Positions 42,193 to 44,177 of a stretch of DNA of 64,000 nt are shown in pieces. The position numbers and the translations under genes are program-made. A model generated the notes under the pieces. That model made no database searches, was not told the origin of the DNA, and saw only the letters and a list, made by a program, of their open reading frames with translations. The stretch is from a virus (lineage: Duplodnaviria; Caudoviricetes): IMG/VR virus record IMGVR_UViG_3300049144_000052, positions 1 through 64,000 of that record; one strand, written 5' to 3'. The stretch's first letter is position 1, and each line of letters starts with the position of its first letter.

Positions 42193-42276
42193 CCGTCGTG
42201 TCTGGTGGGGGAGTTGCGGTATCTGCTGGACGTGTTACCGCTTGATGCGGGTATGGTGGTCACACAACTTCATGCA

Positions 42277-42346
42277 CCTCCCGGTGCGCAGGCCGCGGCT
42301 ACTTCTTTGGAAAAGTCCGCCGCACGCCGACTTTGATCTCGGGAGG
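42277..42346 (+). ncRNA. Short Y RNA-like element (Ro-binding stem only)
   Basis: CCTCCCG/CGGGAGG closing stem; GTGCGCAGG and CTTTGATCT internal bulged helix; near-duplicate of the ends of the next RNA; upstream of Ro60. Confidence 0.72.
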
Positions 42347-42356
42347 CACAGCATCG

Positions 42357-42503
42357 GGGGTGCCCGGTGCGCAGGCAGCGGATACTTCTCCTGCTAAGAG
42401 AGAGACGCGGGTTCGAATCCCGTCCACCGGTCCAGCGGGCCGGAGGTAGCTCAGCGGCCCAGAGCGCTTTGTCTCCGCAGCCGACCTTGATCTCGGGCAC
42501 CCC
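42357..42503 (+). ncRNA. yrlA: YrlA-like Y RNA with a circularly permuted tRNA-like domain
   Basis: GGGGTGCCCG/CGGGCACCCC stem; T arm GCGGG-TTCGAAT-CCCGT precedes acceptor-like stem and D arm GCTC-AGCGGCCCA-GAGC; adjacent to the Ro60 gene. Confidence 0.82.
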
Positions 42504-42515
42504 ACTGCTGATCCT

Positions 42516-42538
42516 CCCCTCCACGTGAGGGGCTTTTT
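42516..42538 (+). terminator. Terminator-like hairpin overlapping the Ro60 RBS
   Basis: CCCCTC-CACGT-GAGGGG-CTTTTT immediately before ATG 42540. Confidence 0.65.
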
Positions 42539-42539
42539 C

Positions 42540-44177
42540 ATGACCAGATTCAACCAGCGCGGCACCCGTCCCGCCGTCCACTCGCCCGTGACCACCACCG
42601 GGGAGCGGGCTCGCACCACAGAGGGCGCCACCGGCTTCCTGCGAGACGCAAAGTCCGAGCTCTTCCTGCTCGCCGTCTCCAACTTCGTTGGCCAGGACGC
42701 CTTCTACGAGAAGGGCGGCGACCGCGACGACCGCTACACGCAGCTCGTCCGCAAGCTCGCCATCGAGGACCCTGCGTGGACTGCGGGCCTGCTGGGCTGG
42801 CTCCGCGGCGAGGGCAACATGCGGACTGCGGCCCTCGTCGGTGCTGCGGAGTTCACCGCCGAACGACTCCTGCACGAGGCCCCCGGGTACTCCCGGCAAG
42901 TCATCGACTCCGTGCTTCAGCGCGCCGACGAGCCGGGGGAGATGCTCGGTTACTGGACCAGCAAGTACGGCCGCCGCCTGCCGAAGCCCGTCAAGCGCGG
43001 CATCGCCGACGCCGTACAGCGCCTGTACAACGGCAAATCCCTACTGAAGTACGACACCACCTCAAAGGGCTACCGCTTCGGTGACGTCCTCAACCTCGTG
43101 CACGCAGCCCCGGACCCGGCCAAGCCATGGCAGGGCGACCTGTTCCAGTACGCCCTCGACCGCCGACACAACCCGACCGAGGCCGTCGAGCCGCCGACGA
43201 ACCGAACACTTACCGCACGCCGGGAACTGATGGAGCTCCCGGTCGACGAACGGCGGGCCCTGCTGACAGCCGAGGACTGCTCCGAGCGGCTCGCGGCGGC
43301 TGGCATGACGTGGGAGGCGCTGGCCGGCTGGCTTCAAGGGCCGATGGACAAGGCGGCCTGGGAGGCGGCCATCCCGTCCATGGGCGTAATGGCCCTTGCG
43401 CGGAACCTGCGCAACTTCGACGAGGCTGGCGTCTCCGACGCGGTCGCCGCCCAGATCTGCACCCGCTTCACCGATGCGGAACAGGTCGCCAAGTCCCGCA
43501 TGTTCCCCTTCCGCTGGTGGGCCGCCTACAAGCACGCCCCCTCCCTGCGGTGGGCGCACGCCCTGGAGCAGGCACTGAACCACTCGCTGGCCAACGTGCC
43601 GCAGCTGGCCGGCCGGACGCTGATCCTGGTGGACCGGTCGCCGTCGATGTTCCCCGGCTACGGTTTCTCCACCCCGAACAGCTCGGACATCACCCTTGCC
43701 GAGCAGGCCGCCGTGTTCGGGTCCGCTCTCGCGCTACGGGCGGAGGCTCCCACGCTCGCCGAGTTCGGATGGACCAGCAACCGCATCGACGTGCCCAAGG
43801 GCGGCAGCGTCCTCAAGCTCATCGAGAACTACGGGCAGATCGACGGCACTGACATCCCGTCTGCGGTAAAGCAGCACTTCGATCTCCTCCGCCACGACCG
43901 GATTGTCATCGTCACCGACGAACAGACCCGTCCTGGCTGGCTGCCTTCAAACGCCTACGGACACGGCGGCATGCGGGAGACGGCGATCGATGACCTCGTT
44001 CCAAAGACGGTGCCCGTCTATATGTGGAACATGGCTGGCTACAAGCCCGGCGCCATGCCGTCCGGGACTGCTGGTCGGCACACATTCGGCGGACTGACGG
44101 ACCACGCCTTCCGCATGGTGCCGCTCCTCGAGGCCGGCCGCGACGCGACCTGGCCGTGGATGCAGCAGCCCGCCTGA
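42540..44177 (+). CDS. rsr: Ro60/TROVE-domain RNA-binding protein with vWA domain
   Basis: SELFLLAV..F...FYE, GNMRT, ALARNLRNF, MFPFRW, vWA MIDAS LVDRSPSM and IVTDEQ. Confidence 0.92.
   Translation: MTRFNQRGTRPAVHSPVTTTGERARTTEGATGFLRDAKSELFLLAVSNFVGQDAFYEKGGDRDDRYTQLVRKLAIEDPAWTAGLLGWLRGEGNMRTAALVGAAEFTAERLLHEAPGYSRQVIDSVLQRADEPGEMLGYWTSKYGRRLPKPVKRGIADAVQRLYNGKSLLKYDTTSKGYRFGDVLNLVHAAPDPAKPWQGDLFQYALDRRHNPTEAVEPPTNRTLTARRELMELPVDERRALLTAEDCSERLAAAGMTWEALAGWLQGPMDKAAWEAAIPSMGVMALARNLRNFDEAGVSDAVAAQICTRFTDAEQVAKSRMFPFRWWAAYKHAPSLRWAHALEQALNHSLANVPQLAGRTLILVDRSPSMFPGYGFSTPNSSDITLAEQAAVFGSALALRAEAPTLAEFGWTSNRIDVPKGGSVLKLIENYGQIDGTDIPSAVKQHFDLLRHDRIVIVTDEQTRPGWLPSNAYGHGGMRETAIDDLVPKTVPVYMWNMAGYKPGAMPSGTAGRHTFGGLTDHAFRMVPLLEAGRDATWPWMQQPA

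What the first reader, a model, noticed from the sequence alone, without database searches (positions are those of the whole stretch)
42386..42475. Larger Y RNA holds a complete circularly permuted tRNA-like unit with a Ser(GCU) anticodon-like loop and internal CCA
Seen, in 5' to 3' order: stem TTCTC/GAGAG with 7-nt loop CTGCTAA (canonical CU-GCU-AA), variable AGAC, T arm, acceptor 3' strand CCACCGG, discriminator T, CCA, 5-nt linker, acceptor 5' strand CCGGAGG (one A-A mismatch), TA, D arm, G. This is tRNA positions 27-76 followed by 1-26. The AGAG strand can instead pair with CTTT (42467-42470), giving the usual YrlA topology, so two folds are possible. Established: YrlA mimics the D, T and acceptor arms. 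Inference: a displayed anticodon loop could be bait for anticodon nucleases, or the RNA could be processed into a CCA-ended tRNA mimic.
Basis: partly seen in the sequence, partly recalled or inferred. Interest (0 to 1): 0.85.

Follow-up and report, generated by a model that had tools for sequence, protein, structure and literature searches.

The report
Phage Y RNA with anticodon arm
A small RNA encoded next to a phage Ro60 gene is a known kind of tRNA look-alike (YrlA Y RNA), but it and about 100 relatives also keep a complete anticodon arm, which the structural paper on YrlA says the family lacks.

Summary
Window 42356-42505 is a YrlA-class Y RNA. A smaller Y RNA (42273-42351) lies upstream and a phage Ro60/Rsr gene (42540-44177) downstream.

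The hairpin is not chance. Of 90 distinct homologs chosen by length alone, 77 form the same 5-bp stem with a 7-nt loop. C32, U33, A37 and A38 are conserved and the triplet varies (16-23 different triplets). The 15:48 Levitt pair covaries without exception, which places the hairpin at tRNA positions 27-43.

One correction. Covariation shows that positions 41-43 pair with the three bases after the D arm (C-Y-U), while 30:40 and 31:39 pair within the hairpin. The anticodon stem is therefore composite. The Ro-binding stem is inserted in its 5' strand, and the invariant UUC only competes for pairing.

The encoded CCA is not conserved (9 of 90).

The permuted order, the "V" stem-loop, RNase P cutting and CCA addition were published for YrlA in 2014-2018. 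The reading of "V" as an anticodon arm appears new.

The junction of a tandem tRNA-Asn gene pair in Streptomyces matches the module, which supports the published dimeric-tRNA origin model.

The decoy function remains untested.

The parts
42273..42351 (+). Smaller Y RNA (YrlB-like). It has the Ro-binding stem and the YUAC-UUC motif, but only a mini hairpin where the larger RNA has the tRNA-like domain.
   Evidence: Model R1 matches only its outer Y-stem positions, at 42.1 bits. Sequence.
42356..42505 (+). Larger Y RNA of the YrlA class (whole RNA; ends are inferred from the model match, not mapped).
   Evidence: R1 was built from 57 homologs without the window and scores it 124.3 bits, E 1.5e-28. 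Rfam YrlA RF02553 matches only the T, acceptor and D part, at 19.3 bits against a cut-off of 69.
42361..42385 (+). 5' strand of the Ro-binding Y stem, with the motif GGTGCGCAGG, the inner helix GCGGA and the conserved ATAC (YUAY).
   Evidence: Nearly invariant columns in A1 and A2. The Y-stem pairs covary.
42386..42388 (+). Invariant UUC. It can pair with G41-A42-G43 to form the top of a plain 5-bp hairpin, but it does not covary with them.
   Evidence: Invariant in 90 of 90. The pairs vary on one side only.
42389..42399 (+). Lower anticodon stem (30:40 is T42389-A42399; 31:39 is C42390-G42398) enclosing the 7-nt loop C32 U33 G C U A37 A38 (42391-42397).
   Evidence: 30:40 and 31:39 each show four Watson-Crick pair types.
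42400..42402 (+). Positions 41-43 (G-A-G), the partner of the 3' linker C-T-T at 42467-42469.
   Evidence: 27':43 shows GC 96, AU 12, CG 8, UA 5. 28':42 shows GC 80, AU 34, CG 8. In the anchor-based count 28':42 is Watson-Crick in 77 of 77.
42403..42406 (+). Variable loop, equivalent to tRNA 44-48 (4 nt here), ending in C48.
   Evidence: The 15:48 Levitt pair is G:C in 72 and A:U in 18, with no exceptions.
42407..42423 (+). T arm (stem GCGGG/CCCGT, loop TTCGAAT).
42424..42446 (+). Closed acceptor stem: 3' strand 42424-42430, T73, CCA 42432-42434, GCGGG, then 5' strand 42440-42446. The predicted RNase P site is 42439|42440.
   Evidence: The 7-bp stem has many compensatory changes; 72 of 90 have 7 of 7 pairs. 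The cut site is inferred from M. smegmatis YrlA (PMC4201824).
42447..42466 (+). U8-A9, the D arm (GCTC / AGCGGCCCA / GAGC) and purine 26.
   Evidence: Position 26 is A or G in 90 of 90.
42467..42469 (+). Linker C-T-T, which forms positions 27'-29', the top 5' strand of the composite anticodon stem.
42470..42504 (+). 3' strand of the Y stem.
42516..42538 (+). Terminator-like hairpin and T run between the Y RNAs and rsr.
42540..44177 (+). Ro60/Rsr ortholog (545 aa, TROVE domain).
   Evidence: Pfam TROVE, E 1.1e-11. PHROG 850 RNA-binding protein, E 2e-47.

Best explanation
Window 42356-42505 is a YrlA-class Y RNA of a temperate-looking 76.6-kb actinophage. It lies just upstream of the phage Ro60/Rsr gene, together with a smaller Y RNA.

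Its effector domain is a nearly complete tRNA mimic: T arm, a closed 7-bp acceptor stem, D arm, purine 26, a 4-nt variable loop, and a full anticodon arm with a 7-nt loop of the form C32-U33-NNN-A37-A38.

The anticodon stem is most likely composite. Positions 27-29 are supplied by C-U-U directly after G26 (42467-42469). Positions 30-31 are supplied by the bases after the conserved YUAC-UUC motif. Both sets pair with the continuous 3' strand 39-43. The Ro-binding stem therefore leaves the side of the anticodon stem.

The arm is probably the surviving anticodon arm of the upstream tRNA of an ancestral tandem tRNA pair. Selection keeps the loop frame and size but not the triplet, which has drifted.

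By analogy with M. smegmatis YrlA, host RNase P should cut at 42439|42440. The 5' piece would then end in CCA (encoded here), leaving a two-piece tRNA mimic held on Rsr that recruits or occupies a tRNA-binding factor.

Shown: the anatomy, its conservation, the covariation and the likeness to tRNA junctions. Inferred: processing, Rsr binding and function.
For: Identity. rsr lies 35 nt downstream on the same strand. R1, built without the window, scores the RNA 124.3 bits. Rfam YrlA aligns the T, acceptor and D parts.

Hairpin. 77 of 90 length-selected homologs form it, and shifted registers fail. RNAalifold predicts it, together with a 7-bp acceptor stem.

Loop. It is 7 nt in 97 of the 102 sequences with the lower pairs formed. 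U33 is kept in 95 of 97, A38 in 97 of 97, C32 in 85 of 97 and a purine at 37 in 90 of 97. There are 23 triplets.

Placement. The 15:48 pair is G:C in 72 and A:U in 18 with no exceptions, and position 26 is always a purine.

Composite stem. 28':42 is Watson-Crick in 77 of 77. The covariation score is 0.731 for the composite against 0.484 for the plain hairpin, on an alignment fitted to the hairpin. L057, L138, L139, L141 and phage Neville change positions 41-43 with matching changes in the linker, while UUC stays fixed.

Origin. R1 hits the junction of tandem tRNA-Asn(GTT) genes at 64-71 bits in 6 genomes. CUGUUAA is the commonest YrlA loop, and 60 of 77 triplets are within one change of GUU. 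One subgroup is 76-78% identical to that junction. The window's clade shares its D loop, 4-nt variable loop and T arm with Streptomyces tRNA-Glu.

Processing precedent: PMC4201824.
Against: Nearest-neighbour energies favour the plain 5-bp hairpin (-68.8 kcal/mol) over the composite stem (-61.1 kcal/mol), and RNAalifold also picks the plain hairpin.

On well-supported tree branches only 3 independent 28':42 switches can be counted (p = 0.25). The figure of 11 rests on an unresolved tree.

Phage Alone3 has a self-contained hairpin whose linker does not pair, so the topology is not uniform.

In the window, T-C-C of TCCA pairs with the 5' leader. That makes a 10-bp hairpin, which could hinder RNase P.

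No RNA ends, modifications or Rsr binding were observed here.

The likeness to tRNA-Asn could partly reflect the model's own consensus loop and short spacer.
Confidence: 0.7

Rival explanations
1. The hairpin is only the 'V' (variable-arm-like) stem-loop already drawn for YrlA. In this view it is a structural spacer with no anticodon-arm meaning, and the CU...AA frame reflects shared ancestry or loop stability.
For: Chen et al. [quoted passage not shown] The triplet is no more variable than other free columns. ARAGORN still-82 of 90 de-permuted sequences as tRNA when the hairpin is shuffled, so the tRNA-finder calls are not evidence for the arm.
Against: A true variable arm sits after positions 44-45 and 1-2 nt before the T stem. 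This hairpin is followed by 4-5 nt that end in the covarying position 48. It is also joined through 41-43 to the bases right after purine 26. The loop length is fixed at 7, and 32, 33, 37 and 38 are far more conserved than 34-36 across clades with different stems. Loci with a real long V arm carry it in addition, with an open anticodon stem.
Confidence: 0.12
2. The displayed anticodon loop is a bait or decoy (or a damage sensor) for host nucleases that cut tRNA anticodon loops, and triplets diversify to match local defences.
For: The loop frame is conserved with 16-23 different triplets. Rsr and Y RNA sit inside tRNA arrays or next to an RNA ligase or a nucleotidyltransferase in other actinophages. 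The Salmonella rsr-yrlBA-rtcBA operon responds to damaged tRNAs (abstract of PMC7790460).
Against: No nuclease, ligase, RtcB or CCA-adding enzyme is encoded in this phage. Triplet variation looks like point-mutation drift around GUU and equals that of other unconstrained columns. No cleavage data exist.
Confidence: 0.12
3. It is an ordinary, non-permuted tRNA-Ser(GCU) gene at 42364-42434, as ARAGORN calls it and as GenBank annotators called the equivalents in phages VanLee and Alone3.
For: ARAGORN calls it. CCGGTG at 42364-42369 can pair with CACCGG at 42425-42430. 45 of 90 native homologs also get a tRNA call.
Against: The Rfam tRNA score is 19.9 bits against a cut-off of 29, and there is no D arm. 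The supposed acceptor 5' strand is the invariant Ro-binding motif, and its true partner at 42490-42500 covaries with it. The real D arm and acceptor 5' strand lie downstream and are conserved. There is no long variable arm as in tRNA-Ser.
Confidence: 0.02

Closest known systems
Mycobacterium smegmatis YrlA (Chen et al. 2014, PMC4201824)
   Same: It is about 147 nt and lies upstream of rsr together with a smaller YrlB. It has T and D arms in permuted order and a closed 7-bp acceptor stem, and the paper draws a 'V' stem-loop for many YrlAs, this one among those aligned. The reported halves of 82 and 65 nt after RNase P cutting and CCA addition fit the 79 and 65 nt predicted here.
   Different: The published reading calls the extra stem-loop a variable arm, and no anticodon-like loop is discussed. 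I could not fetch the M. smegmatis sequence to check its loop. Here the RNA is phage-borne, the CCA is encoded, and the acceptor hairpin is extended to 10 bp.
Salmonella Typhimurium YrlA, crystal structure 6CU1 (Wang et al., bioRxiv 10.1101/312249)
   Same: It has the tRNA L-shape with the same tertiary pairs. Its anticodon-stem analogue is formed between the strand before the variable loop and the strand after the D arm, as for 41-43 with the linker here. It also has the conserved UA kink motif.
   Different: That paper states that YrlA lacks the anticodon loop, and its stem runs straight into the Ro-binding module. Here two further pairs and a 7-nt loop cap the stem, and the Ro module branches off. 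Rfam's model, built on that type, misses the window (19.3 bits against a cut-off of 69).
Junction of tandem tRNA-Asn(GTT) genes in Streptomyces (dimeric-tRNA origin model of Sim and Wolin 2018, as cited in 10.1101/312249)
   Same: The order is anticodon arm, 5-nt variable loop, T arm, acceptor 3' strand, 4-5 nt spacer, acceptor 5' strand, D arm. It matches the YrlA model at 64-71 bits. The loop CUGUUAA equals the commonest YrlA loop.
   Different: These are two real tRNA genes with no Ro-binding stem. The window's own module is only 60% identical to the junction and looks closer to tRNA-Glu in its D loop, variable loop and T arm.
Circularly permuted tRNA genes of red algae and some archaea
   Same: The acceptor stem is closed in the precursor, and the 3' half is encoded before the 5' half.
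   Different: Those precursors are spliced at a bulge-helix-bulge motif and circularised to yield working tRNAs. No such motif or enzyme is known in bacteria, and here the break is filled by a Ro-binding module.
tmRNA and the TYMV tRNA-like structure
   Same: They are tRNA mimics that have both a CCA end and an anticodon-domain mimic.
   Different: They are aminoacylated and act on ribosomes. Nothing here shows charging, and the side-branching Ro module would probably not fit a ribosome.

Membership tests
YrlA Y RNA | Encoded near and on the same strand as a Ro60/Rsr (TROVE) gene | tested here: met
   rsr at 42540-44177 (+) starts 35 nt after the RNA.
YrlA Y RNA | T arm 5' of the D arm, with a closed acceptor-like stem-loop between them | tested here: met
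   Rfam YrlA model positions 28-81 align to 42404-42465. The helices covary.
YrlA Y RNA | tRNA tertiary signature: 15:48 Levitt pair with compensatory change, U8-A9, and the conserved YUAY motif | tested here: met
   15:48 is G:C in 72 and A:U in 18. TA precedes the D arm. The window has AUAC at 42382-42385, while most relatives have YUAC.
YrlA Y RNA | 5'/3' terminal stem with the Ro-binding motif GNCGAAN0-1G | tested here: inconclusive
   The stem is present and covaries. The motif here is GGUGCGCAGG (GGUGCGAAGG in many relatives), which is related to the published consensus but not an exact match.
YrlA Y RNA | Reaches the Rfam RF02553 gathering score | tested here: not met
   19.3 bits against a cut-off of 69. 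The model does not cover the actinobacterial type. The custom model R1 gives 124.3 bits.
YrlA Y RNA | Bound by Rsr; modified by TruB and DusA; (M. smegmatis type) cut by RNase P and given CCA | not testable with these tools
   The RNA-library contigs hold relatives but cannot show ends or binding.
Canonical tRNA gene | Cloverleaf in the normal order, reaching the Rfam tRNA gathering score | tested here: not met
   19.9 bits against a cut-off of 29, with no D arm in the un-permuted reading.
Permuted tRNA gene (algal/archaeal type) | Bulge-helix-bulge splice motif at the joined ends and processing to a functional tRNA | not tested
   No splicing endonuclease is known in the hosts. The ends here form a Ro-binding stem.

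The most novel reading that the evidence does not exclude
After RNase P cutting, the Rsr-bound two-piece RNA presents both a CCA end and a genuine anticodon loop. It is then used by the phage as a programmable tRNA decoy or sensor: host anticodon nucleases or anticodon-loop enzymes bind or cut it instead of cellular tRNA, and the triplet is tuned by selection to the host's defences.
Probability: 0.1. Interest if true: 0.85.

Novelty: new variant of a known kind. Interest (0 to 1): 0.5.

Why it matters
YrlA RNAs are described as tRNA mimics that lack both a free CCA end and an anticodon loop, and their partner protein is unknown. This work shows that a large actinobacterial and actinophage branch keeps a complete anticodon arm with a conserved U-turn-type loop frame, and that the Ro-binding module branches from the side of that arm. 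Three things follow.

- The search for the effector narrows to proteins that read the anticodon-loop shape but not the triplet.
- There are concrete predictions: t6A37 at A42396 in loops ending U36-A37-A38, and loss of function in U33 or A37-A38 mutants but not in triplet mutants.
- The proposed origin from tandem tRNA transcripts gains direct sequence support.

There is also a practical point. About half of these RNAs are called tRNA genes by a standard finder, and at least two GenBank phage records carry such calls.

Tried and rejected
- **ARAGORN on de-permuted sequences.** 88 of 90 were called tRNA, but 78-82 of 90 were still called after the hairpin was shuffled. I rejected this as evidence for the arm.
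- **MAFFT alignments A1 and A3.** They put gaps inside the hairpin or linker, so column counts there were unreliable. I used anchor-based counts and alignments A2 and A4 instead.
- **UGG triplet with G37 as a tRNA-Pro signature.** I rejected this, because UUGGGA is a motif shared with the open-type YrlA paralogs.
- **Excess triplet variation as a sign of diversifying selection.** None was found. Entropy at positions 34-36 is like that of other free columns.
- **Tree-based independent contrasts for 28':42.** Only 3 supported pairs were found, too few for significance.
- **RNA-library runs.** Contigs from four studies hold relatives, and many diverge right after 42388. They cannot show transcription, ends or processing.
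- **Literature.** The Annual Review 2020 on bacterial Ro60 could not be read, and the 2018 Microbiology Spectrum review was not found in the searches, so prior mention of an anticodon-like loop there cannot be excluded.
- **M. smegmatis and mycobacteriophage YrlA.** These sequences could not be fetched.
- **RtcB and CCA-adding enzyme.** Both were searched for in the phage and neither was found.

Full report
**What is in the window**

The genome is a 76.6-kb virus record. A lysis cassette with an endolysin-like gene and a holin lies upstream.

Two small RNAs follow it, at 42273-42351 and 42356-42505. After them come a terminator-like hairpin at 42516-42532 and a 545-aa Ro60/Rsr gene at 42540-44177 (TROVE domain; PHROG 850).

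The whole-window Rfam scan found nothing at gathering level. A permissive scan aligned the T arm, closed acceptor stem and D arm to the YrlA family at 19.3 bits against a cut-off of 69. It aligned 42364-42431 to tRNA at 19.9 bits against a cut-off of 29. ARAGORN calls 42364-42434 a tRNA-Ser(gct).

**The observation**

The parts list gives them in full.

**Relatives**

The Rsr protein recovered 40 IMG/VR loci and 80 loci in Streptomyces, Kitasatospora and other actinobacterial genomes. Annotated phages also carry it: Gordonia phages VanLee, BearBQ, Neville and Rabbitrun, Streptomyces phages BRock, Alone3, Kela and Satis, and Arthrobacter phage Atuin.

I anchored on the T loop and the conserved YUAC-UUC motif. 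I kept every distinct module with 21-22 nt between them and applied no pairing filter, which gave 90 sequences.

Registers shifted by one to three columns give 38-70%. All five pairs form in 77 of 90.
- Pairs 30:40 and 31:39 each show four Watson-Crick types. Positions 27-29 are an invariant UUC.
- In the loop, C32 is kept in 84%, U33 in 93%, A37 in 88% and A38 in 92%. Positions 34-36 are the most variable, with 16 triplets.

The counting tool agrees. It gave 99.3% paired on 57 sequences, reached by 0 of 500 shuffles, and 94.6% on 126 sequences. RNAalifold predicts the hairpin, a 7-bp acceptor stem, the T and D arms and the Y stems, most with compensatory changes.

On the alignment of 126 distinct YrlAs, 97 have the lower two pairs and a loop of exactly 7 nt. 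Among those 97, U33 is kept in 95, A38 in 97 and a purine at 37 in 90, and there are 23 triplets.

**Where the hairpin sits**

The 4-5 nt after the hairpin end in a base that pairs with D-loop position 15 in every case: G:C in 72 and A:U in 18. They are therefore tRNA positions 44-48, and the hairpin occupies 27-43. A variable arm would not sit there.

**The stem is composite**

The base after the D stem is always a purine (position 26), and it is followed by C-Y-U.

- In the 77 full hairpins the second linker base is Watson-Crick to position 42 in all 77 (U:A in 21, C:G in 56). The first linker base pairs with position 43 in 76 of 77.
- On the larger alignment, which was fitted to the plain hairpin and so leans towards it, 27':43 shows GC 96, AU 12, CG 8, UA 5. 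28':42 shows GC 80, AU 34, CG 8. 29':41 is mostly G.U.
- The covariation score there is 0.731 for the composite stem and 0.484 for the plain hairpin.
- Where positions 41-43 change (L057, L138, L139, L141, phages Neville and Rabbitrun), the linker changes with them and UUC does not.

The best-supported picture is a 5-bp anticodon stem whose 5' strand comes in two pieces. Positions 27-29 follow directly from G26. Positions 30-31 follow the YUAC-UUC motif. The Ro-binding stem enters between them.

Four cautions apply.
- Nearest-neighbour energies prefer the plain hairpin by about 8 kcal/mol.
- Only three independent switches sit on well-supported tree branches.
- Alone3 has a self-contained hairpin.
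- About a quarter of the YrlAs are of the open type, with no capped loop.

**CCA and the acceptor stem**

The acceptor stem is 7 bp in nearly all homologs, as in M. smegmatis YrlA. An encoded CCA after the discriminator occurs in only 9 of 90. In the window its TCC pairs with the leader. The CCA is therefore a local feature.

**What was already known**

- Chen et al. 2014 described YrlA with T, D and closed acceptor arms and a fourth stem-loop, V. They showed that M. smegmatis YrlA is cut by RNase P and gains CCA, giving halves of 82 and 65 nt.
- Wang et al. 2018 solved the Salmonella domain and stated that YrlA lacks the anticodon loop. They discussed the resemblance to permuted tRNAs and cited the dimeric-tRNA origin model.
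- None of the other YrlA papers I opened and searched mentions an anticodon-like loop.

**Origin**

A covariance model of these RNAs, R1, scores the window at 124.3 bits.

R1 also hits the junction of a conserved tandem tRNA-Asn(GTT) gene pair at 64-71 bits in six genomes of a 151-genome Actinomycetes sample. The two genes are 4-5 nt apart.

That junction has the same order of parts and the loop CUGUUAA, which is the commonest YrlA loop. Of 77 triplets, 60 are within one change of GUU. One subgroup is 76-78% identical to the junction, acceptor stem included, while the window is 60% identical.

The window's clade shares its D loop, 4-nt variable loop and T arm with Streptomyces tRNA-Glu.

These results fit descent from, or repeated remodelling on, tandem tRNA genes, with the hairpin as the upstream tRNA's anticodon arm. 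They show resemblance and do not prove descent.

**Function**

Family-level knowledge says that Y RNAs tether Ro60 to an effector, and that YrlA's tRNA-like domain is the effector side.

The new constraint is that selection keeps the loop size and positions 32, 33, 37 and 38 but not the triplet. The triplet is as variable as other free columns. This points to a partner or processing step that reads the anticodon-loop shape.

Two-thirds of the loops fit the C-U-N-N-U-A-A pattern. From my own knowledge of t6A determinants, this is the pattern of t6A37 substrates. That is a prediction and was not tested.

The decoy idea is compatible with the neighbouring tRNA arrays, RNA ligase and nucleotidyltransferase genes in other phages. 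It has no direct support here, and this phage has no RtcB or CCA-adding enzyme.

**Verdict**

The object is a member of a known family. The anticodon-arm reading and the composite stem are a modest but genuine addition to what is published.

Noticed in passing
L001 1497-1568 (Gordonia phage VanLee) and L124 1274-1347 (Streptomyces phage Alone3): GenBank records annotate the YrlA tRNA-like region as tRNA-Arg(tct) and tRNA-Ser(gct). ARAGORN makes such calls on 45 of 90 native YrlA modules, so phage tRNA counts next to Ro-like genes are probably inflated.
   Followed up: partly
L001 1190-1740: VanLee carries four Y-RNA-like units in a row upstream of its Ro-like gene. Two are YrlA-like, one with and one without the capped anticodon arm. 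A HicA-like toxin gene lies just upstream.
   Followed up: no
L088-L122 and L135 (Streptomyces chromosomal loci): Many loci hold two YrlA paralogs side by side. One has the capped anticodon arm. The other is an open type in which the Ro module enters at the anticodon loop, and some of these have a true long variable arm and a D arm of the GTGGCGGAAC type.
   Followed up: partly
L127 about 1250-1330 (Gordonia phage Rabbitrun): The acceptor hairpin of its YrlA is replaced by a long insert that contains a second T-arm-like hairpin and another stem-loop, as if a further tRNA piece were nested in it. L065 and L067 also have long acceptor inserts.
   Followed up: no
window 42265-42276; also L061, L135, L136: A short motif, CACAACTTCA, recurs just before or between Y RNA units in several loci. 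It may be a processing or promoter-related signal.
   Followed up: no
L134, L146, L147, L148, L157, L160: A tandem tRNA-Asn(GTT) pair with a 4-5 nt spacer, followed by tRNA-Met, is conserved in several actinomycete genomes.
   Followed up: partly
L125 729-1481 (Streptomyces phage Kela); L127 and L128 1-520: An RNA ligase gene directly precedes the Ro-like gene in Kela. A nucleotidyltransferase gene lies about 1 kb upstream in Neville and Rabbitrun. BRock, Alone3 and Atuin embed the Ro gene in tRNA arrays.
   Followed up: no
window 42364-42369 with 42425-42430: The Ro-binding 5' strand CCGGTG is complementary to the acceptor 3' strand CACCGG. This could allow a non-permuted alternative fold when the Y stem is open. 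Similar partial complementarity is seen in VanLee and in one Streptomyces clade.
   Followed up: partly
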